This document shows, in pieces, positions 5,014 to 24,173 of a stretch of DNA of 36,379 nucleotides. A program made the translations under genes and the position numbers. Positions within the stretch are counted from its first letter, which is position 1. Each line of letters opens with the position of its first letter. The stretch lies in the IMG/VR virus record IMGVR_UViG_2531839666_000016, one strand, 5' to 3'. Source of the stretch: a virus. Taxonomy: Duplodnaviria > Heunggongvirae > Uroviricota > Caudoviricetes. A model generated the notes under the pieces. The model worked only from the letters and a program-made list of their open reading frames with translations, was not told where the DNA came from and made no database searches.

Positions 5014-6092
5014 CAGAACGGGTCCTCCTGTACTCTGGCTTTTTTCTTTTTCCGCGCGCCGGGGTCTTCAGGTTCAGGCAGATAAGCATCAGGCGGGCCG
5101 ACACGGATTTCCGTCAGGGTGCCGTTCTGGTCCTGAGTAAACGTGACTTCCGAAACAAGCAGTTCGGTATTGTCAAAACCACAGACCGGATCAAAGACAA
5201 TCACCCGCTGGTTGGGTTGCCACAGCGTACCGTTACCCTGTCGCCAGCCCTGCACCACATAGGTGGTTTCATCCGTCCGCGCCGCCCGTTGCCGGGCTTC
5301 AAAGTCAGCACGCGCAATACAGCCTGCCCCCGTAGCCTGCCCTGTCTGCCTGATATACATCGGACGGTAACGGGCAATAAATGCGTCCTCTGTGCGGGCC
5401 CGCAGCGCGGTGGTGGTGGCCTCACCGAAATCATCGTCGTTTCCGGCACGCTGCCCCGCCACCTGGTAAACAGAAAACCGCTCCCGGATACTCTTCTCCG
5501 TATCGCAGGAAAGGATGTTTTCCCCAAGTACCAGCGCGGTATGTGCCCGCGTTGAGCCAATACCGCCAATCACCAGCCTGCCGTGCGGATCGTCGTAAGC
5601 CAGTGCCTGCTGCTGACCGAGTATTTTGTTGATTACCTCAATCACCGTTTCACCGTGATCAGGCTGGACATCAGGAATAACACCCGACGGCGCACCGCTG
5701 TTCACCACCTCAATGCCGAAAGGCGCAGCAAGCGCCTGCGCAATCTGTACCAGCGATCGTCCGTTAAACTGTGTCGGTTCGGCTGCACAGTCAATCAGGT
5801 CAGCGGTCAGACTGCGTCCGGCAATACCGGTGCTGACCGAACGGGCATCGTAACGAACGGGAGTCGCCTCCACCCAGCCGGTGATCACCCGCTCATCACC
5901 AATCAGCACTTCCACTTTTGAACCGTTTTTAATGCGCGGCTGAAGCGTGGTGATACCCTCATCTCCCGGCCACTGGCGGGTGATCTCCACACTGAAATCC
6001 CGCGCCAGCCGTTCAATACCGGCACCGATGCGCACCGATGTCCAGCCATTCCACTCCCGGCCATTTACCCGTAGCGTGACGTTATCGTTCAT
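5013..6092 (-). CDS. Baseplate hub / tail protein (Mu gp44, late-control-D-like)
   Basis: 359 aa; follows DNA-circulation gene, precedes spike; C-terminal lysine-rich tail. Confidence 0.6.
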   Translation of the reverse strand: MNDNVTLRVNGREWNGWTSVRIGAGIERLARDFSVEITRQWPGDEGITTLQPRIKNGSKVEVLIGDERVITGWVEATPVRYDARSVSTGIAGRSLTADLIDCAAEPTQFNGRSLVQIAQALAAPFGIEVVNSGAPSGVIPDVQPDHGETVIEVINKILGQQQALAYDDPHGRLVIGGIGSTRAHTALVLGENILSCDTEKSIRERFSVYQVAGQRAGNDDDFGEATTTALRARTEDAFIARYRPMYIRQTGQATGAGCIARADFEARQRAARTDETTYVVQGWRQGNGTLWQPNQRVIVFDPVCGFDNTELLVSEVTFTQDQNGTLTEIRVGPPDAYLPEPEDPGARKKKKARVQEDPF

Positions 6093-7459
6093 TGCACTGG
6101 CACCTTCAGAGGGATCACCGGCACAAAGCCGGGATGCGTAATGGCATTACGCCGGATAATGTCCGCGTCACGCGTCGCGTTATCAAACCAGGTCGCCGCC
6201 AGCACCAGCGCGGGTAAAACCTCATCCGGTGTGCGCTGAATGATCCGTGCAGACTGTTCAAGGCGCGTGTTGATATCCGCATTCAGATCTGCTTTCACCC
6301 GGCGCAGCGCCAGAAACAGCGCATCACTGGTTGTACGGGACAACTCCTTATCAATTGCCGTATTCAGTGTGTCGCGAATGTCAGTCAGTTCTTCCCACGT
6401 CGGCAGATCAACCGTGTTTTTCATCGCCGGTGCATTGTTCAGTGCCGGATGCGTGACGGAAGGCCAGCCGGTGCTCTGTGCAGCTGTTGTTGCCTGCCCC
6501 ACTGCGGCATTCTGCATCACCGCGGAAGTTGTTGGCGCAGGCAATCGGGTGACGGCATACGCCGCTTCGCTGATTGCGGTCGTACGAAGGGTGCTGGCAA
6601 CCACGTTACGCTGCTGCGTCGCCGTAGCGGTGGTTTTACTGTCCGTTTTCCAGACGCCGCGCGGTTGCAGATCACTGCCGAGGCTGACACCGGAAAGCGT
6701 TTTGATCATGGTGACCAGATCGCTGGCGTTACCATAAAGGCGTTTCCCGGTACGCCACATTTTCTGCACCTGCTCAACGAAATTTTTGCCTGACGATGGC
6801 GGCGGCAGAAGTACCGAGATATCCCCCTGCAACAGCCTGGCGGCATCCGATACGGCAGAATCCACCACTTTCATCGCATCAGAAACATACCCCAGCATTA
6901 TGCTGGCATTACCAATAACGTCGTTCTGCACGAAATCCGCCACGCCATCGATACTGAAACCGCTGAAGCTGTCACTGATGCAGTCATCCAGTGCAGAACA
7001 GGATGACATCAGCGTCTGCGCCGTCGCCGCACCTGAAGTGGGGTAAGAGAGTTCTCCCGCTTCGACAAACTTCAGGTCAAAGCGGACAATACGCCCTTCA
7101 CTCTTCGATGTGCTGACCCGAACCTCTCCGTCAACACAGACTTTCAGCTCACCGTAAGTCGGATGGACAAGCGTGCCGGGACCGGGTTTATTCAGCGCGT
7201 CAATCAGGCGATCGCGCTGGTCAAAGCAGTCATCTCCCACCACATAAGCCGTGATGGACGGGCGGAAAGTGATTTTCCCCAGGTCTTCGGTATAGGGTTT
7301 GTCGCGGTTCGGGTATTCGTGCGTTTCCACACGACGACCGGTTCCCGTACTTTCTTCTTCAACCTTAAACGGCACACCGCGAAATGACGCGTCCTGAAGT
7401 CTGTCTTTCCACGTCATATAAACTCCGTACATAAAAAATCCCACCGGAGTGGGACTCAT
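6089..7459 (-). CDS. DNA circulation protein-like tail protein (Mu gp43 family); true start probably internal (about 7417)
   Basis: 456 aa ORF directly downstream of tape measure. The first 14 codons overlap a terminator-like hairpin; an internal ATG at about 7417 has a GGAG RBS. Confidence 0.6.
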   Translation of the reverse strand: MSPTPVGFFMYGVYMTWKDRLQDASFRGVPFKVEEESTGTGRRVETHEYPNRDKPYTEDLGKITFRPSITAYVVGDDCFDQRDRLIDALNKPGPGTLVHPTYGELKVCVDGEVRVSTSKSEGRIVRFDLKFVEAGELSYPTSGAATAQTLMSSCSALDDCISDSFSGFSIDGVADFVQNDVIGNASIMLGYVSDAMKVVDSAVSDAARLLQGDISVLLPPPSSGKNFVEQVQKMWRTGKRLYGNASDLVTMIKTLSGVSLGSDLQPRGVWKTDSKTTATATQQRNVVASTLRTTAISEAAYAVTRLPAPTTSAVMQNAAVGQATTAAQSTGWPSVTHPALNNAPAMKNTVDLPTWEELTDIRDTLNTAIDKELSRTTSDALFLALRRVKADLNADINTRLEQSARIIQRTPDEVLPALVLAATWFDNATRDADIIRRNAITHPGFVPVIPLKVPVQ

Positions 7460-18880: not shown

Positions 18881-19273
18881 TCATCTCGGACTCCTGTTCT
18901 TTTTGGCGGTCAGCTCAGGATTTTTGACCATACCGCCCATTGCACCGGTGATGGTGTTGCCCTGTCTGGCAATATTTTTCACGGCACGTCGCCAGAACTC
19001 GTAGGCCACGCACCACCGCTCAAGCACCGCGAGGTCAGTCACGCACAGCAGGCCCTGACCGCAGAGTTCTTTGGTTGTCAGTTGCCACATGATCGTGGCG
19101 AGAGGGAGATCTTCTTCAGCGAACCACTCCGGTGGCTCAACACCTTTGATGGGCGTAAAAACAGGTTCATCTTTGTTCAGGGCTCGCTTGCCGGGATTTC
19201 CGGCCAGCGCCTTGCGCGCCGTTGGCTTGGGGCGACGCCCGGAACGCCCCGCCGTTCCAGCCATATGCGGCAC
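18881..19273 (-). CDS. Terminase small subunit (P27 family)
   Basis: 130 aa basic protein immediately upstream of large subunit and downstream of HNH endonuclease. Confidence 0.65.
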   Translation of the reverse strand: MPHMAGTAGRSGRRPKPTARKALAGNPGKRALNKDEPVFTPIKGVEPPEWFAEEDLPLATIMWQLTTKELCGQGLLCVTDLAVLERWCVAYEFWRRAVKNIARQGNTITGAMGGMVKNPELTAKKNRSPR

Positions 19274-19388: not shown

Positions 19389-19739
19389 TTACTTCAACCG
19401 TTCACGGGCCGTCTTCGCCTTATGACACGGCCAGCACAGGCTCTGCAGATTGCTGTCGGCATCAGTGCCGCCATGCGCTTTAGGGATGATGTGGTCAACG
19501 GTTTTCGCCTCACGTACCACACCACCACGCAGACATAACTGACACAGTCCTTTGTCACGCTTGAGCACACGTTCACGGATAACATCCCATTTCGAACCAT
19601 AACCGCGCTGGTGTCTGGACTGGCCCGGCTTGTATTGCTTCCAGCCTTCACTTTTGTGGCTTTCGCAATAGCCTGACGGGTCAGTTGTGGTATGGCGGCA
19701 GCCGCGAACACGGCAGGCTTTTGGGGTTCGTGGTGGCAT
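19389..19739 (-). CDS. HNH endonuclease (terminase-associated)
   Basis: 116 aa with Cys-rich zinc-finger-like pairs and the HNH-type motif DHIIPKAHGG...N...H; typical position upstream of terS. Confidence 0.85.
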   Translation of the reverse strand: MPPRTPKACRVRGCRHTTTDPSGYCESHKSEGWKQYKPGQSRHQRGYGSKWDVIRERVLKRDKGLCQLCLRGGVVREAKTVDHIIPKAHGGTDADSNLQSLCWPCHKAKTARERLK

Positions 19740-19770
19740 TAATCGACTCTCTTTACGCTTATCAATGCAT

Positions 19771-19794
19771 AAAAAAGCCTCGCATCAGCGAGGC
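19771..19794 (-). terminator. Intrinsic terminator (minus strand)
   Basis: Hairpin GCCTCGC-loop-GCGAGGC followed on the minus strand by a T run. Confidence 0.5.
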
Positions 19795-19850
19795 TCAGTC
19801 TATCCCATGAAGGGAAATATAGAGGCGATTCCGTCCATTGGACAAGCAAT

Positions 19851-19875
19851 AAAAAACCGCCCGAAGGCGGTTTTT
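19851..19875 (-). terminator. Bidirectional intrinsic terminator just after the moron cassette stop
   Basis: A6-CCGCC-CGAA-GGCGG-T5; lies 4 nt downstream of the stop of ORF 19879-20457. Confidence 0.6.
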
Positions 19876-19878
19876 ACA

Positions 19879-20457
19879 TCATGCATATGCATAATTTTCT
19901 TCTGCAACAAGCTTTGCAACCTGTCTATCAGGAAGAAGTAAAACAGCCTGCTCTAGGCTTTGTTTTTCAGTGAGTAACTCTAAAAATTGGTTGGCTGTTT
20001 GCAGAACTTTTGCCACAGACCAAATTGTTAACATAATTGGAAGAGAATATATAATCAACATTAAACTATTGAAAAGCAAAACCTTATCCAAGATTTTAGC
20101 TGATTCTCGTATCGTTGCTATTAACTTCCCGTTATCACATTTCTGAAAAAGTTCAACCTCACGTTTGATCCTTGCCTGTATCTCTGGATTAGCACTGAGC
20201 CGCCTTTGAGCCCTCACTCTGTTGGGCAAAGTCATAAGGTGCAAACGATTGATTGCGTTGTTTAAGGCCTCATGTACAAGCTCAGCCGCTTGTACATCAT
20301 CTTTACTTTCATTCGAAATTATTTGATTTCTAACTATATCTCTCAGTTCAAAAAGCTTATTGCGGTAATGCAAACGAACAGATGGAAGTAGTATCCTTTC
20401 GTAAATAAAATGCACTGCTGCCATACATAACAGCACATAAAAAAGCACTGTCAGCAT
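19879..20457 (-). CDS. Moron-encoded membrane protein (N-terminal and C-proximal TM helices, central coiled region), function unknown
   Basis: 192-aa ORF in markedly AT-rich DNA; hydrophobic segments LTVLFYVLLCMAAVHFI and LLFNSLMLIIYSLPIMLTIWSV; terminator immediately downstream. Confidence 0.55.
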   Translation of the reverse strand: MLTVLFYVLLCMAAVHFIYERILLPSVRLHYRNKLFELRDIVRNQIISNESKDDVQAAELVHEALNNAINRLHLMTLPNRVRAQRRLSANPEIQARIKREVELFQKCDNGKLIATIRESAKILDKVLLFNSLMLIIYSLPIMLTIWSVAKVLQTANQFLELLTEKQSLEQAVLLLPDRQVAKLVAEENYAYA

Positions 20458-20473
20458 AGTTTCTCCTTAGGGA

Positions 20474-20860
20474 TTAATTGTCGCTTGATCCCAGTGGCAC
20501 TTGTGTTCTCGCCTGTTGATGCAGAGTTTTTTCTGCTCCAATACGACGAGCTTCCACGCTAAAACATCTGCGCATCATACTTGCATGCCAAGACCACGCT
20601 AGGATAACAATGACACAAAGTCCATACCCAATTAGAGAGTGATCTGCTAAGCCGTCAATAATTCGATGCGCTAGTATTCCTAATTCCTCTGATGGCATGC
20701 GCCAAGCTGCAATCATCAGTACAATACTTATAGTTATAGGCACTAGTTGACCGGTTGTCATGGCTTTGAGCATCACATCTCGCCATGCCTGAGCAAAACT
20801 TACTGAATGTTGCCCTTTACCTGATTTTCCACCTTTGCCCTTTGACTTACCCATTATCAT
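20474..20860 (-). CDS. Moron-encoded small membrane protein (Lys/Gly-rich N-terminus, two TM helices), function unknown
   Basis: 128-aa ORF 17 nt upstream of 19879-20457 in the same AT-rich block; TM segments LVPITISIVLMIAAW and LIGYGLCVIVILAWSW. Confidence 0.5.
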   Translation of the reverse strand: MIMGKSKGKGGKSGKGQHSVSFAQAWRDVMLKAMTTGQLVPITISIVLMIAAWRMPSEELGILAHRIIDGLADHSLIGYGLCVIVILAWSWHASMMRRCFSVEARRIGAEKTLHQQARTQVPLGSSDN

Positions 20861-21612
20861 CCAGCCGCGGTTATGATTTTAGGTAAATTCTACAGCTATA
20901 AATAACAAAATAAAACATCCACTTACTACATCTCTTCTTCCATTAGCCATATTTCTCACTTGCAAATCAAGCTTTTTTTGCACAACAAGGCATTATTCTC
21001 CTCAACTTTCTATATGTTGTGTCCCAACAGCTAACAAACAACTATCACCCACATCACATATGTAGGATGCTTAACTTTTTTAAAAGTTCATTATCACTTA
21101 ACTAAGAACCATATTTTCAGACAATTATCTACAGCTGCCATCCATACTTTGCTGTATGCCTGTATATTTTTCTTTGACTACTTATCGAGCTCATCCAAGT
21201 AATCAACAGCCGCACAGATAGGTCTCACCCGGTCCCGCCCTGTGTCAATTAACTCAACCTTGCATGTCCTACTTGTGCGCAGTTCGTGATCAACGCCACT
21301 ATCAGACATATGATTAACAGTTTGCTATACCTTGTTGGTATCTTTCGTTGCTTATATCCAGCGCTCTGCTATAGCCTAGATGTTGAGTCCTCCTATTCGT
21401 AACGCTTCTGATCAGCGTTCATTTGTACTTCGCTAGTACCGTATGAATATCCTAGACCGAATACCCTAGCGGTAGCAGTGCTAAACGCAGCAGCTAGCAA
21501 GATAATCATTTCGATACCCATTGTGCTCCCACATCAGAGTAGATCTCAGCAGATTGAACAGAATGTGCTAGGAATAACAATTCGAAAAAAGCTATCGTTC
21601 AATCCGCCCCTG

Positions 21613-22050
21613 TTAATCCAGGCATTGAGTTCTGATGTATTCCTGTAGGTAATTAACCTGTGCAGTTATCTTGTCGATTCCACTTCGGAGGCGGTAATAA
21701 TTGAGTTCAGCATCTGCTGTAAGTCTTGGGCTTTCTCCATCGCCCATGCTGCTGGCTCCGGTCGTTGACTTTGCACAGGTGGCGGCGACTTGCAGCCGCT
21801 TACGCCCAGCAGAAACATCATCACGGAGACTTTCGATAGTCGCGTTAGCATCAGCAAGCTCCTTTGTATATCTGGCATCGAGTTCTGCTACATCATGTTG
21901 ACGCTTCTGCATGTCAGCGATTGTGGATGTGGCCTTATCGCGCTGCTCTTTGTAGGTAATGGCGTTATCACGGTAATGATTAACCGCCCATGACAGGCAG
22001 ACGATGATGCAGATAACCAGAGCGGAGATAATCGCGGTTACTCTGCTCAT
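21613..22050 (-). CDS. Rz: Rz i-spanin
   Basis: 145 aa; N-terminal sequence [34 protein letters not shown] matches lambda Rz as recalled; follows endolysin. Confidence 0.8.
21666..21878 (-). CDS. Rz1: Rz1 o-spanin (lipoprotein embedded in Rz in alternative frame); likely start at MMFLL (about 21821)
   Basis: Embedded ORF with lipobox LLGVSGC followed by a Pro-rich segment, the hallmark of Rz1. Confidence 0.6.
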
Positions 22051-22523
22051 ACCTCAATCTCTCTGACCATTCCGCCAGCTTCTTTGAATTTTGCAATCAG
22101 GTTGTCAGCCTTATGCTCGAACTGACCATAACCAGCCCCCGGCAGTGAAGCCCAGATATTGCTGCAACGGTCGATTGCCTGACGGATATCACCGCGATCA
22201 ATCATCGGTAAAGCGCCACGTTCTTTAATCTGCTGCAATGCCACTGCGTCCTGGCTTTTGGGGGAGAAGTCTTTCAGGCCAAGCTGCTTACGGTAAGCAT
22301 CCCACCAGCGTGAAAGAAGCTGATAACGTCCGGCTGCTGTTGATTTGAGTTTGGGGTTTAGCGTGACAAGCTTGCGAGGGTGATCGGAGTAATCAGTGAA
22401 GAGTTCTCCACCGACAATAACATCATAACCGTGGTTACGTGTCGGTTGTCGCCCGTTATCCGTTCCTTCTGACCATGCCACCATATCGAGGAAAGCTTTA
22501 CGCTGAGGATTAAGATTTTGCAT
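22047..22523 (-). CDS. R: Endolysin, lambda R-like lytic transglycosylase
   Basis: 158 aa, near-identical over most of its length to lambda R as recalled (…[19 protein letters not shown]…). Confidence 0.9.
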
Positions 22524-22827
22524 TTTTCACCCCTGTCAGTCGTTCCCAGAAGTACGTCAGTGCAACCGACCCCATCGCACCGCTAATCCCCGCTGTCGCG
22601 AGAATCATGTAAATACTGAATCCACTTTCGATGCTAATCAGGCCACCAATAACACCGGTGAATCCTGATACCACTATTTGAGCCAGAGCATTTATCCAAC
22701 TCCACGTTGCTTTACTCTGCTTCACATCTATCAGGTAGCGGACCAGACCGCCCCAACCTGCAATGATCAGCAAAACGAGCCAGAACGCTCCGGCAAGGCT
22801 CTCTTTTTCGTGCATATGAATAGCCAA
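22510..22827 (-). CDS. Holin (possible dual-start, TTG codon 1 and ATG codon 5)
   Basis: 105 aa with three hydrophobic helices and charged C-terminus; immediately upstream of endolysin. Confidence 0.7.
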   Translation of the reverse strand: MAIHMHEKESLAGAFWLVLLIIAGWGGLVRYLIDVKQSKATWSWINALAQIVVSGFTGVIGGLISIESGFSIYMILATAGISGAMGSVALTYFWERLTGVKNAKS

Positions 22828-23038: not shown

Positions 23039-23218
23039 CTACTGTTCTTCTATTTTTTTACTGGAAATCAATCCACTGGTCATTTCATAACCGTTTGTGT
23101 GGCCACAGTAAGGGCAAATAATTGGCTCTTTATCCTTTCCTCCTGGATAGCCTCCACTGTGCTCCCAATAAATAAACTCTTTATTGCAACTTTCATTACT
23201 ACATCTTGTATTGCTCAT
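23039..23218 (-). CDS. Small Cys-rich (zinc-ribbon-like) protein, 59 aa, first ORF of the late transcript
   Basis: Hand-translated: MSNTRCSNESCNKEFIYWEHSGGYPGGKDKEPIICPYCGHTNGYEMTSGLISSKKIEEQ; GGGAG Shine-Dalgarno 7 nt upstream of ATG; below the 60-aa cutoff of the ORF track. Confidence 0.35.
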   Translation of the reverse strand: MSNTRCSNESCNKEFIYWEHSGGYPGGKDKEPIICPYCGHTNGYEMTSGLISSKKIEEQ

Positions 23219-23288
23219 TGCATCACTCCCTCAGTAAGTAAGGAAATAAATACATAGCATAACCAAATCATTATTCGAAATTTGAGCA

Positions 23289-23314
23289 CAAAAAAACCCG
23301 CTCGATGGCGGGTT
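23289..23314 (-). terminator. Candidate tR' (terminator of short pR' leader transcript)
   Basis: On minus strand: AACCCGC-loop-GCGGGTT followed by T7; about 100 nt downstream of Q stop. Confidence 0.5.
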
Positions 23315-23360
23315 CAAGAAGATTATCAACGGTAGACACACAAAGCCCATCGTTAGGATA

Positions 23361-23389
23361 ATCCTAACCATATTTTTTGAAAAATGCAA
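23361..23389 (-). promoter_or_regulatory. Candidate late promoter pR' with overlapping palindrome (possible Q-utilisation site)
   Basis: Minus strand TTGCAT, 17-nt spacer, TAGGAT; the 17-bp palindrome GTTAGGAT-A-ATCCTAAC (23352-23368) overlaps the -10. Confidence 0.35.
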
Positions 23390-23420: not shown

Positions 23421-24173
23421 TTATCTTGTCACTCTCCTCAATTGTGTCTCAGCATATGCTTCTTCCTGCCAGCACTTTGTAACCAGTTTATCAATGACAT
23501 CTGCATATCCTTTGTACCACTGATAATCCGTCAGGTCTGGTACCAGCTTCTGGACATGATGCCGCGCCAGTGTGGTTGGTAAACGGCTAAACCGGTTTCC
23601 ATTGCAACGCCCACAAATCTTATAAACAGGCGTGCCATGAAGCCGGGTCCTTTTTTCATCCAGGACAATACCTTTACCCTTACACCCTCTGCACGCTGTG
23701 CTGACTTCTCCCTTACCATGACAATGCTGACATAGTTCCTTCACCCACTCTTCCTTGATAACAGATTCCCCGCTTCTGGAGTGTTTCACCACCTCGCGCA
23801 ATACATTATGAAATCCAGTACCAGCACAATGCTCACAGCGAGCCTTACTTGCCGCAGACCTGGAATAATCAGCAAAGGCAAAATTCACAAGGTAAGGGAT
23901 GATCTGTAACCGGATTTCTTCACTCAATTTGTTCAATGTCGGGTTATCCAGTGCCATCGCGTAATTGAGCAGACCTTCAATCGCAAACTGAGGATCCTGA
24001 ACGCCAACTTTTGCCAGGAATAAGGTAAACCCAAGCGGTGCTTTCGACTGCACCATCCCCTGTGCAGCCATCACATCCGTAATCGTTAAACCACCTGAGC
24101 CTGTCGCCGGTGCGTCATCACTCAATTTTGGAGATTTTGGGGAGTAATATTTTGGTAAGGCTTCAAGGTTCAT
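23421..24173 (-). CDS. Q: Late-gene antiterminator Q (zinc-finger type)
   Basis: 250 aa with Cys/His clusters (CEHCAGTG, CQHCHGKG, CRGCKGKG, CGRCNG); located immediately upstream of pR'-lysis cassette. Confidence 0.75.
   Translation of the reverse strand: MNLEALPKYYSPKSPKLSDDAPATGSGGLTITDVMAAQGMVQSKAPLGFTLFLAKVGVQDPQFAIEGLLNYAMALDNPTLNKLSEEIRLQIIPYLVNFAFADYSRSAASKARCEHCAGTGFHNVLREVVKHSRSGESVIKEEWVKELCQHCHGKGEVSTACRGCKGKGIVLDEKRTRLHGTPVYKICGRCNGNRFSRLPTTLARHHVQKLVPDLTDYQWYKGYADVIDKLVTKCWQEEAYAETQLRRVTR

What the first reader, a model, noticed from the sequence alone, without database searches (positions are those of the whole stretch)
20861..21612. 750 bp AT-rich stretch with no ORF of 60 codons or more on either strand
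In a tightly packed phage genome a 0.75 kb gap is unusual. It lies upstream of the moron cassette and downstream of Rz. It may hold the cassette promoter and a long leader, a regulatory RNA, or the decayed remnant of a gene. I found no tRNA-like T-loop motif by eye.
Basis: seen in the sequence. Interest (0 to 1): 0.4.

Follow-up and report, generated by a model that had tools for sequence, protein, structure and literature searches.

The report
Dead spanin genes plus defence-cassette promoter
The 0.75 kb gene-less gap in this E. coli prophage is ordinary: most of it is the decayed wreck of a second, redundant pair of lysis (spanin) genes, and the AT-rich rest is the promoter region carried by a mobile two-gene anti-phage cassette.

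Summary
Window 20855-21612 has 40% GC against 51% for the window, has no ORF over 56 codons, and is the largest unannotated stretch in this e14/SfV-like prophage. All genes here read on the minus strand.

The gap has four pieces.
- **21522-21612 (91 bp):** unique sequence after the intact Rz/Rz1. No relative was found.
- **21112-21521 (410 bp):** a collinear but dead copy of an overlapped i-spanin/o-spanin pair of the mEp390/HK639/SaltyDalty type. It carries four in-frame stops, at least two 1-nt deletions and a lost o-spanin start codon (ATG to AGG).
- **21048-21111 (65 bp):** a junction.
- **20855-21047 (193 bp, 34% GC):** the upstream region that travels with the downstream cassette. It carries sigma-70-like boxes at positions conserved in relatives sitting in P2-like and lambdoid phages.

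The cassette matches the PADLOC models 2TM-TIR and 1TM-TIR but has no TIR gene. The unit 19850-21047 ends in a terminator, so it is a classic moron.

There is no tRNA, no Rfam match inside the gap and no unusual RNA folding of the leader. The only mildly novel item is a 40-nt element around the cassette start codon. It is 92% conserved and may form a hairpin that hides the start codon; this is suggestive, not shown. Interest is low.

The parts
21613..22050 (-). Intact Rz (i-spanin) with Rz1 (o-spanin) embedded in it within the ORF 21666-21878. This is the working spanin pair, and it makes the downstream copy redundant.
   Evidence: Pfam PF03245 at 3.7e-37 and PF06085 at 2.2e-19. Homology with Rz of other E. 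coli prophages stops exactly at the Rz stop codon.
21522..21612 (-). 91-bp unique spacer between the Rz stop and the dead i-spanin start. It keeps a GGGAG Shine-Dalgarno sequence in front of the old ATG. Its origin is unresolved.
   Evidence: No homology at blastn or tblastn level, and no endolysin 3' remnant.
21254..21521 (-). i-spanin pseudogene of the mEp390 gp51 / HK639 type. ATG at 21521, transmembrane segment intact, TAG at codon 43, a 1-nt deletion after 21382, then two further in-frame stops (TAA, TAG).
   Evidence: tblastn E = 2.4e-15 with 50-60% identity in two frames. Collinear DNA alignment A2. Three-frame translation. Indel list and relaxed codon-position pattern. Intact relatives match phrog_1026, Rz-like spanin.
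21112..21332 (-). o-spanin pseudogene overlapping the i-spanin remnant. Start codon ATG changed to AGG (21332-21330). Lipobox LIASC changed to LITNC. A 1-nt deletion after 21262. An in-frame TAG (DRQTKK to DK*SKK). A periplasmic Cys lost (DTACDW to DTGRDR).
   Evidence: tblastn E = 7.9e-12 against SaltyDalty CDS23 in two frames. Alignment A2. Lesions. Intact relatives match phrog_1275, Rz-like spanin. The intact arrangement is seen in L022.
21048..21111 (-). 65-bp junction, 31% GC, between the spanin remnant and the left end of the cassette unit.
   Evidence: It lies outside the L058 homology, which ends at 21047, and outside the spanin alignment.
20855..21047 (-). 193-bp upstream regulatory region that belongs to the mobile 2TM/1TM cassette. 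It is 34% GC.
   Evidence: It is contiguous with the coding region in an 82-83% identical alignment to L058, which sits in a different phage context. Block conservation with 13 other loci.
20887..20915 (-). Proximal promoter-like site. The -10 box is TAGAAT (20892-20887). The -35 is degenerate (TTTATT/TTTTAT at about 20915-20909). The predicted transcription start is near 20880, giving a 5' UTR of about 26 nt.
   Evidence: PWM scan. The homologous position in 10 of 14 loci carries TTGAC[T/G]-18-TAnnnT at a fixed distance from the start codon. The consensus scan did not list it.
20942..20970 (-). Distal promoter-like site. The conserved hexamer TTGATT (20970-20965) is followed 17 nt later by GCTAAT (20947-20942).
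   Evidence: TTGATT or TTGCTT is conserved in 12 of 14 loci. PWM score is 5.2.
20846..20883 (-). 40-nt element spanning the 5' UTR and the first codons of the 2TM gene. It is conserved far more strongly than the coding sequence. It is predicted to form a hairpin pairing UUACCUA (just after the -10 box) with UGGGUAA (start codon and codons 2-3).
   Evidence: 92% identity to L068 and L015, whose proteins are 53-57% identical. The same hairpin topology is the minimum-energy fold in 12 of 14 loci; window z = -2.48. Controls are weak.
19850..20854 (-). The cassette itself, outside the finding. It consists of the 2TM gene (20474-20854), the 1TM gene (19879-20457) and an intrinsic terminator (19875-19852).
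   Evidence: PADLOC 2TM-TIR at 5.8e-57 and 1TM-TIR at 8.9e-79. Terminator. Unit boundary.

Best explanation
The gap is a mosaic scar plus a promoter region. It is not a hidden gene or a regulatory RNA.

**Spanin fossil (shown).** Reading on the minus strand after the intact Rz/Rz1, there is a 91-bp orphan spacer. Then comes a 410-bp fossil of a second two-component spanin pair, of the overlapped i-/o-spanin type found in mEp390, HK639 and SaltyDalty. The phage already has a working Rz/Rz1, so this copy was redundant. It has accumulated at least seven disabling lesions.

**Origin of the fossil (inferred).** It is most likely what remains of an earlier lysis module. It is part neither of the backbone shared with sibling prophages nor of the cassette unit shared with the cassette's nearest relative.

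**Cassette leader (homology shown, function inferred).** The last 193 bp (20855-21047) belong to a 1.2-kb mobile moron at 19850-21047. The moron consists of an AT-rich leader with two sigma-70-like promoter sites, a 2TM gene, a 1TM gene and an intrinsic terminator. I infer that this leader lets the cassette be transcribed from the repressed prophage, independently of the Q-dependent late operon in which it sits. The terminator closes the unit.
For: **Spanin remnant**
- Distant blastn links window positions about 21147-21521 to annotated Rz-like spanin genes at 68-78% identity.
- tblastn gives E = 2.4e-15 for the i-spanin and 7.9e-12 for the o-spanin. Each match is split over two frames with internal stops.
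- A collinear four-way DNA alignment runs from the i-spanin ATG to the o-spanin 3' end.
- The lesions are listed.
- Substitutions against mEp390 are spread 0.39/0.21/0.45 over codon positions 1/2/3. Between two intact relatives the figures are 0.14/0.16/0.46, so constraint has been relaxed in the window.
- Intact relatives belong to the PHROG spanin families 1026 and 1275. Kongari et al. 2018 (PMC6139136) list mEp390 and HK639 among two-component spanins.
- An intact Rz/Rz1 lies immediately upstream.

**Mosaic boundaries**
- The sibling prophage CAVP776 shares the backbone only up to 19819 and from 21620 onward.
- L058 shares 19850-21047.
- Sibling prophages carry other cargo between Rz and HNH.

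**Leader**
- The same upstream blocks occur before 2TM homologues in at least five kinds of phage context.
- A TTGAC[T/G]-18-TAnnnT promoter lies at a fixed distance from the start codon in 10 of 14 loci. The window has TAGAAT at the homologous place.
- A terminator lies at 19875-19852.
- GC is 40% against 51% for the window.

**Negatives that fit**
- No tRNA.
- No Rfam hit in the gap.
- Leader fold z = -0.79.
- No TIR or endolysin remnant.
Against: - Promoter activity is inferred from consensus and conservation only.
- In the window and its closest relative L058, the proximal -35 is degenerate (3 of 6 matches). The simple consensus scan listed no minus-strand promoter in the gap.
- All six E. 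coli copies are essentially identical, so they say nothing about selection on any part.
- The 91-bp spacer and the 65-bp junction have no identified origin.
- A 42-codon ORF (21393-21521) keeps its Shine-Dalgarno sequence, ATG and transmembrane segment. It could still be translated from late transcripts.
Confidence: 0.85

Rival explanations
1. The whole 750 bp is a long structured 5' leader or a regulatory RNA (riboswitch, sRNA or antisense RNA) controlling the cassette or lysis.
For: It is long, AT-rich and gene-less, and lies directly upstream of the cassette. A small conserved hairpin may exist at the start codon.
Against: - No Rfam family matches inside the gap, even at E <= 1, and there is no tRNA or tmRNA.
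- The leader folds no better than shuffles, z = -0.79.
- 55% of the gap is recognisably dead spanin coding sequence.
- Homology with other copies of the cassette stops 193 nt upstream of the start codon.
- The conserved promoter predicts a UTR of only about 26 nt.
Confidence: 0.03
2. The spanin remnant is still functional. Either recoding (frameshifting or read-through) yields a second spanin, or the surviving 42-aa N-terminal membrane peptide (21393-21521) acts in lysis control.
For: The 42-codon ORF retains a GGGAG Shine-Dalgarno sequence, its ATG and an intact transmembrane segment. It lies in the late operon and would be transcribed.
Against: - There are at least seven independent lesions. 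They include loss of the o-spanin start codon, loss of a periplasmic cysteine and a non-canonical lipobox.
- The truncated peptide lacks the periplasmic coiled-coil domain that makes an i-spanin work (established knowledge, Kongari 2018, PMC6139136).
- Codon-position substitution patterns indicate relaxed constraint.
- An intact Rz/Rz1 is present.
Confidence: 0.04
3. Alternative origin. The spanin remnant was not resident. It hitch-hiked as flanking DNA when the cassette was captured from a donor lambdoid phage in which the cassette sat just downstream of mEp390-type spanins.
For: The cassette does occur directly downstream of spanin genes in other phages: L062 after Rz and L067 after DUF2570. 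The remnant, junction and cassette together replace one segment relative to the sibling prophage, 19820-21619.
Against: - The nearest cassette relative, L058 (88% protein and 82% DNA identity), shares nothing upstream of 21047.
- No locus was found with intact mEp390-type spanins followed by this cassette.
- The heavy decay implies that the remnant is older than the 82%-identity cassette split, or evolved neutrally for a long time.
Confidence: 0.3
4. The AT-rich 254 bp hides an unannotated small protein gene, for example the 34-codon GTG ORF at 20879-20983 on the minus strand.
For: Small ORFs exist there.
Against: - Alignments of this region across loci are full of indels that are not multiples of three.
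- Only short DNA blocks are conserved.
- Stop density is that of random sequence.
Confidence: 0.03

Closest known systems
Overlapped two-component spanins of phages mEp390 (gp51/gp52), HK639 and SaltyDalty (PHROG 1026 i-spanin, PHROG 1275 o-spanin; Kongari et al. 2018, PMC6139136)
   Same: Collinear nucleotide and protein homology over the whole gene pair. The overlapped architecture is the same, with the o-spanin start inside the i-spanin 3' part. The N-terminal transmembrane segment and the lipobox-like LITNC are recognisable.
   Different: - Both genes are dead, through stops, frameshifts and a lost start codon.
- They lie downstream of another complete spanin pair of a different (embedded, lambda-type) architecture, with no cognate endolysin or holin.
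- Identity to any known member is only about 70% at DNA level and 40-60% at protein level.
Morons of lambdoid phages: promoter-gene-terminator units inserted between Rz and the terminase genes, such as lambda bor (concept of Juhala/Hendrix, from my own knowledge)
   Same: - It occupies the same slot, which is variable among sibling prophages.
- Its GC is lower than the backbone's.
- It has its own promoter-like sites upstream and an intrinsic terminator downstream.
- It occurs in unrelated phage contexts.
   Different: The promoter has not been demonstrated. The cargo is a two-gene membrane-protein defence module rather than a single lysogenic-conversion gene.
The 2TM + 1TM + TIR anti-phage system of P2-like phage AC1 (Rousset et al. 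2022, PMC9122126; PADLOC models 2TM-TIR, 1TM-TIR, TIR-TM)
   Same: The two genes downstream of the gap match the 2TM and 1TM models end to end, at E = 5.8e-57 and 8.9e-79. The gene order 2TM then 1TM is the same as in L013, which also carries the TIR gene.
   Different: - No TIR gene or remnant exists anywhere in the window.
- The cassette is in a lambdoid late-operon slot, not the P2 gpA/portal hotspot.
- The two-gene, TIR-less form is the common one among the loci examined: every locus whose downstream region I inspected lacks the TIR gene except L013.
Fold-back inhibition of IS10/IS50 transposase translation in read-through transcripts (from my own knowledge)
   Same: The predicted hairpin pairs a segment lying between the -10 box and the predicted start site with the start codon. 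Only transcripts entering from outside would mask the AUG. In the window, predicted start-codon accessibility is 0.98 in the short transcript and 0.30 in the long one.
   Different: This is a prediction only. The short-versus-long contrast is weak or absent in several homologues. The shuffle control is weak. RNAalifold finds no consensus structure on the MAFFT alignment.

Membership tests
Two-component spanin (i-spanin/o-spanin, mEp390/HK639 type) | Sequence homology to established family members over the length of both genes | tested here: met
   tblastn E = 2.4e-15 (i-spanin) and 7.9e-12 (o-spanin). Collinear DNA alignment.
Two-component spanin (i-spanin/o-spanin, mEp390/HK639 type) | Two intact reading frames with start codons | tested here: not met
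   Four in-frame stops, at least two 1-nt deletions, and o-spanin ATG changed to AGG. These are pseudogenes, not functional members.
Two-component spanin (i-spanin/o-spanin, mEp390/HK639 type) | i-spanin N-terminal transmembrane segment; o-spanin lipobox [LVI][ASTVI][GAS]C and periplasmic cysteines | tested here: inconclusive
   The transmembrane segment is retained in the 42-aa ORF. The lipobox reads LITNC, with Asn at -1, which is outside the consensus quoted in PMC6139136. One conserved Cys is lost (DTACDW to DTGRDR).
Two-component spanin (i-spanin/o-spanin, mEp390/HK639 type) | Position directly after a cognate endolysin in a lysis cassette | tested here: not met
   It lies after another spanin pair (Rz/Rz1). 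No endolysin remnant is found in the 91 bp upstream.
Moron (autonomous promoter-gene-terminator insert in a phage late operon) | Present or absent among otherwise similar phages, and compositionally distinct | tested here: met
   Sibling prophages carry other cargo in the slot. GC is 40% against 51%. The unit is found in at least five phage contexts.
Moron (autonomous promoter-gene-terminator insert in a phage late operon) | Own promoter upstream | tested here: inconclusive
   Conserved TTGAC[T/G]-18-TAnnnT in 10 of 14 homologous leaders. The window has TAGAAT with a weak -35. No transcript data are available.
Moron (autonomous promoter-gene-terminator insert in a phage late operon) | Own terminator downstream | tested here: met
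   A hairpin of 10 pairs followed by a T-run at 19875-19852, inside the unit shared with L058 and L008.
2TM/1TM/TIR defence system (Rousset 2022; PADLOC) | 2TM and 1TM proteins | tested here: met
   PDLC02978 at 5.8e-57 and PDLC02977 at 8.9e-79.
2TM/1TM/TIR defence system (Rousset 2022; PADLOC) | TIR-domain protein encoded next to them | tested here: not met
   tblastn of the L013 TIR protein (PADLOC TIR-TM, 2.3e-118) against the whole window gives nothing at E <= 10. The terminator and the HNH gene follow the 1TM gene directly.
2TM/1TM/TIR defence system (Rousset 2022; PADLOC) | Anti-phage activity | not testable with these tools
   It was shown only for the three-gene AC1 system (PMC9122126).
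Known structured RNAs (Rfam families, tRNA/tmRNA) | Covariance-model or ARAGORN match inside 20855-21612 | tested here: not met
   No hit in the gap at E <= 1. No tRNA or tmRNA in the window.
Fold-back inhibition element (IS10-like insulation of translation from read-through transcripts) | Conserved hairpin that pairs the start codon with a segment upstream of the element's own transcription start, supported by covariation | tested here: inconclusive
   - The same topology is the minimum-energy fold in 12 of 14 loci; z-scores run from -3.1 to +0.5.
- A few compensatory changes are visible by eye, in the window and L062.
- RNAalifold finds nothing.
- Shuffled upstream sequence pairs the start region nearly as often, 0.61 against 0.71.
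- The accessibility contrast is clear only in some loci.

The most novel reading that the evidence does not exclude
The 40-nt element around the 2TM start codon (window 20846-20883) is 92% identical even between cassettes whose proteins are only 53-57% identical. It may be a translational insulator. Its 5' arm lies between the cassette's own -10 box and the transcription start. Transcripts made from the cassette promoter in the lysogen would then have an open start codon. Read-through transcripts from the phage late promoter, or from whatever lies upstream after the cassette moves, would fold back and hide the AUG. A potentially toxic membrane effector would thus be protected from over-expression wherever the moron lands. 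This would be fold-back inhibition as in IS10/IS50, but in a mobile defence cassette.
Probability: 0.15. Interest if true: 0.45.

Novelty: new member of a known kind. Interest (0 to 1): 0.17.

Why it matters
- **Annotation.** The largest unannotated stretch of this prophage is explained. No new gene or RNA class needs to be invoked. Pipelines could label 21112-21521 as spanin pseudogenes.
- **Phage evolution.** The locus is a dissectable example of mosaicism. A working embedded Rz/Rz1 sits next to the fossil of an overlapped spanin pair from a different lysis module. Next to that lies a 1.2-kb defence moron whose ends can be placed to within a few bases.
- **Defence systems.** The 2TM/1TM module circulates without its TIR partner. 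It always travels with the same roughly 190-bp leader, through P2-like hotspots and several lambdoid slots. This raises the question of whether the two membrane proteins work alone.

Tried and rejected
- **Near-identical phage matches.** Megablast of the gap against GenBank phages found nothing. Only distant blastn revealed the spanin link.
- **Rfam and ARAGORN.** Neither found anything in the gap. The subthreshold Rfam hits nearby (19769-19963 and 23288-23372) are terminator hairpins.
- **Endolysin remnant in 21522-21612.** None was found with mEp390 (epsilon15-type) or GH108 endolysins.
- **Decayed TIR gene in the gap.** I considered this because the cassette belongs to a 2TM/1TM/TIR system. 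I rejected it because the TIR gene lies downstream of 1TM where present (L013). No TIR similarity exists anywhere in the window.
- **Searching for the cassette by single protein in one-genome-per-species contigs.** This found nothing. The profile search found only distant Pasteurellaceae relatives.
- **Searching for an intact ancestor.** Viral contig scans with repaired spanin sequences found only the window's own prophage and relatives of 58% identity or less. No intact spanins-plus-cassette locus was found.
- **P2 Ogr-type TGT-N12-ACA site in the leader.** I looked by eye. The spacings are 11, 13 and 15 nt, not 12, so I did not pursue it.
- **RNAalifold on the start-codon element.** No consensus structure came out on the MAFFT alignment. 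The shuffle control showed that UGGGG pairs readily with any upstream sequence. I therefore downgraded the hairpin to a possibility.
- **Early scripting error.** They are stored as multi-record files.

Full report
**Setting.** The window is the reverse complement of an e14/SfV-like prophage. It carries intE, xisE, a Q antiterminator, a lysis cassette, HNH, a P27-family TerS, HK97-type head genes, a contractile tail and pinE. It is essentially identical to a prophage of E. coli O91 RM7190.

Around the finding, all genes read on the minus strand:

| Gene | Coordinates |
|---|---|
| Q | 23421-24173 |
| LydA-type holin | 22510-22827 |
| GH24 lysozyme | 22047-22523 |
| Rz, with Rz1 embedded | 21613-22050 |
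| the gap | 20855-21612 |
| 126-aa protein | 20474-20854 |
| 192-aa protein | 19879-20457 |
| HNH | 19389-19739 |
| TerS | 18881-19273 |

**Observation.** It is confirmed.
- No ORF of 60 codons lies between 20861 and 21612 on either strand.
- GC is 40.4% against 51.2% for the window. It drops to 33.5% in 20861-21114, where the plus strand has a strong C-over-G skew.
- ORF-lessness is not itself surprising. Half of the shuffles of the same bases also lack a 60-codon ORF.
- The size is what is unusual. This is the largest unannotated stretch of the prophage; the next largest is 279 bp.
- The sequence occurs, at least 99.9% identical and always unannotated, in 6 of 5426 complete E. coli genomes.
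- The true start of the downstream gene is the second ATG, at 20854. This follows RefSeq annotation and homologues that begin MGK. The gap is therefore 758 bp.

**Piece 1: a dead spanin pair (21112-21521).**
- Near-identity searches against phages found nothing. Distant blastn matched window positions about 21147-21521 at 68-78% identity to genes annotated as Rz-like spanins in phages mEp390, HK639 and SaltyDalty, and in several E. coli prophages.
- tblastn with the intact proteins gives an i-spanin match split over two frames. Residues 1-42 map to 21521-21396 and residues 50-82 to 21375-21277, with combined E = 2.4e-15.
- The o-spanin match is also split over two frames, at 21329-21255 and 21261-21115, with E = 7.9e-12.
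- A four-way DNA alignment is collinear from the i-spanin ATG at 21521 to the o-spanin 3' end near 21112.
- The i-spanin lesions are TAG at codon 43, a 1-nt deletion after 21382, and two further in-frame stops.
- The o-spanin lesions are a start codon changed from ATG to AGG (21332-21330), a 1-nt deletion after 21262, an in-frame TAG, a lost periplasmic cysteine, and a lipobox altered from LIASC to LITNC.
- Substitutions between the window and mEp390 are almost as frequent at codon position 1 (0.39) as at position 3 (0.45). Between two intact relatives they are 0.14 and 0.46. This is what relaxed constraint looks like.
- The intact relatives fall in PHROG spanin families 1026 and 1275. Kongari et al. 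2018 list them among two-component spanins (PMC6139136).
- A viral contig, L022, shows the normal setting of such a pair: holins, GH108 endolysin, i-/o-spanin, a small moron, then terminase.
- The window's own Rz (PF03245, 3.7e-37) and embedded Rz1 (PF06085, 2.2e-19) are intact. The second pair was therefore redundant.

**Piece 2: the orphan spacers.**
- Homology of the window with Rz of thousands of other E. coli prophages ends exactly at the Rz stop codon.
- The next 91 bp (21522-21612) match nothing and hold no endolysin 3' remnant. They retain a GGGAG ribosome-binding site before the dead i-spanin's ATG.
- A 42-codon ORF (21393-21521) encoding only the transmembrane segment therefore survives.
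- The 65 bp at 21048-21111 are the junction to the cassette.

**Piece 3: the cassette's own upstream region (20855-21047).**
- The two downstream proteins match the PADLOC models 2TM-TIR (5.8e-57) and 1TM-TIR (8.9e-79). These models derive from the three-gene system of P2-like phage AC1, which Rousset et al. 2022 showed to protect against lambda, LF82_P8 and P2 (PMC9122126).
- Homologues of the 2TM gene were collected from viral contigs, metagenomes and assemblies. They sit in at least five kinds of place:

| Context | Loci |
|---|---|
| P2 hotspot between gpA and portal | L008, L010, L011, L063, L064, L066 |
| Downstream of spanin genes, as in the window | L062, L067 |
| Between endolysin and spanin | L065 |
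| Between Q/pRha and the lysis genes | L061 |
| Upstream of HNH-TerS | L068 |

- In every case 300-700 bp without a called gene precede the 2TM gene.
- The closest relative, L058 (88% protein identity), sits in yet another neighbourhood. It aligns with the window in one uninterrupted 82%-identical block from 21047 to 19850. That block contains 193 bp of upstream DNA, both genes, and the terminator hairpin at 19875-19852.
- The sibling prophage CAVP776 shares the backbone only up to 19819 and from 21620 onward. Other siblings carry different cargo between Rz and HNH.
- The unit 19850-21047 is thus a moron. The spanin fossil belongs neither to it nor to the shared backbone.

**What the 193 bp contain.**
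- In 10 of 14 distinct loci a near-consensus promoter, TTGAC[T/G]-18-TAnnnT, lies at a fixed distance from the start codon, with the -10 box ending 32-36 nt upstream of it.
- The window has TAGAAT (20892-20887) at the homologous place, but its -35 is degenerate. Its closest relative L058 shares this trait.
- A second conserved hexamer, TTGATT (20970-20965), and a block about 52 nt further upstream (consensus CACTATATGTTGTGT, diverged in the window) recur at fixed relative spacing.
- These features make the segment a promoter/operator region. No transcription data were available, so this step is inferred.
- Folded as RNA, the leader is unremarkable, z = -0.79. Rfam finds nothing in it.

**A possible extra.**
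- The 40 nt spanning -31 to +8 of the 2TM start (20846-20883) are 92% identical even in L068 and L015, whose proteins are 53-57% identical to the window's.
- In 12 of 14 loci the minimum-energy fold pairs a CC[CU]A-containing segment just after the -10 box with UGGGG of the start codon. The window gives -12.4 kcal/mol and z = -2.48; L011 gives z = -3.14; the others are weaker.
- Two sequences show changes on both sides that keep pairing. In the window, codon 2 is GGU and faces an A. In L062, GAG faces a U.
- The 5' arm lies between the -10 box and the predicted start site. It would therefore be present only in read-through transcripts, which resembles IS10 fold-back inhibition. For the window, the predicted start-codon accessibility is 0.98 in the short transcript against 0.30 in the long one.
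- The controls are weak. RNAalifold finds no consensus on the MAFFT alignment. Shuffled upstream sequences pair the start region nearly as often, 0.61 against 0.71. The short/long contrast is absent in several loci.
- I treat this as a lead with about 15% probability.

**Mechanism, with status.**
- *Shown:* the sequence homologies, the lesions and the mosaic boundaries.
- *Inferred, about 0.75:* the 193-bp leader drives transcription of the two membrane-protein genes from the repressed prophage, and the terminator ends that transcript. During lytic growth, Q-modified polymerase from pR' reads through everything, including the fossil.
- *Inferred, about 0.5 against 0.3:* the fossil is the residue of a former resident lysis module displaced by the present holin-GH24-Rz/Rz1 module, rather than donor flank dragged in with the cassette.

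**Verdict.** This is an ordinary, well-explained feature: pseudogenes plus a moron promoter. It is a new example of known kinds and its interest is low. The TIR-less two-gene form of the defence system and the ultra-conserved start-codon element are the only points worth a follow-up.

Noticed in passing
window 19850-20854 (- strand); loci L008, L010, L011, L013, L058, L061-L068: The moron cassette is a two-gene, TIR-less version of the 2TM/1TM/TIR defence system of Rousset 2022. Among the loci I inspected downstream of the 1TM gene, only L013 carries the TIR gene (5148-6095; PADLOC TIR-TM, 2.3e-118). The same two-gene unit sits in the P2 gpA/portal hotspot and in at least four different lambdoid slots.
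   Followed up: partly
window 20846-20883 (- strand): A 40-nt element around the 2TM start codon is 92% identical in homologues whose proteins are only 53-57% identical. It is predicted to form a hairpin that sequesters the start codon. Its 5' arm lies between the -10 box and the predicted transcription start.
   Followed up: partly
window 23288-23372 (- strand): A subthreshold Rfam Trp_leader-like hit (25.5 bits, E = 0.044) lies between Q and the holin. It is a GC-rich hairpin with a T-run, most likely the tR' terminator on which Q acts. The 180-bp gene 23039-23218 (a 59-aa Cys-rich protein) lies in the AT-rich stretch just after it.
   Followed up: no
window 19769-19963 (- strand): Two tandem intrinsic terminators lie at 19875-19852 and 19796-19775. 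They drew weak Rfam sRNA-like hits. The first belongs to the cassette unit. The second belongs to the backbone shared with the sibling prophage CAVP776.
   Followed up: partly
L001 3268-4879 (E. coli FHI_NMBU_10): In one of the six genomes carrying this prophage variant, an IS3 element splits the HNH endonuclease gene next to TerS. The window's copy is intact.
   Followed up: no
L065 1750-4230 (Plesiomonas shigelloides contig): Here the 2TM/1TM cassette is inserted inside a lysis cassette, between the endolysin (Peptidase_M15_4) and a DUF2514 spanin-like gene. It splits what is normally a contiguous module.
   Followed up: no
window about 2100-2420, the reverse complement of L057 33966-34281: The tail-fibre gene stfP is annotated as truncated (C-terminus missing), next to the pinE invertase region. 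This suggests that the tail-fibre end of the prophage is rearranged or decayed.
   Followed up: no
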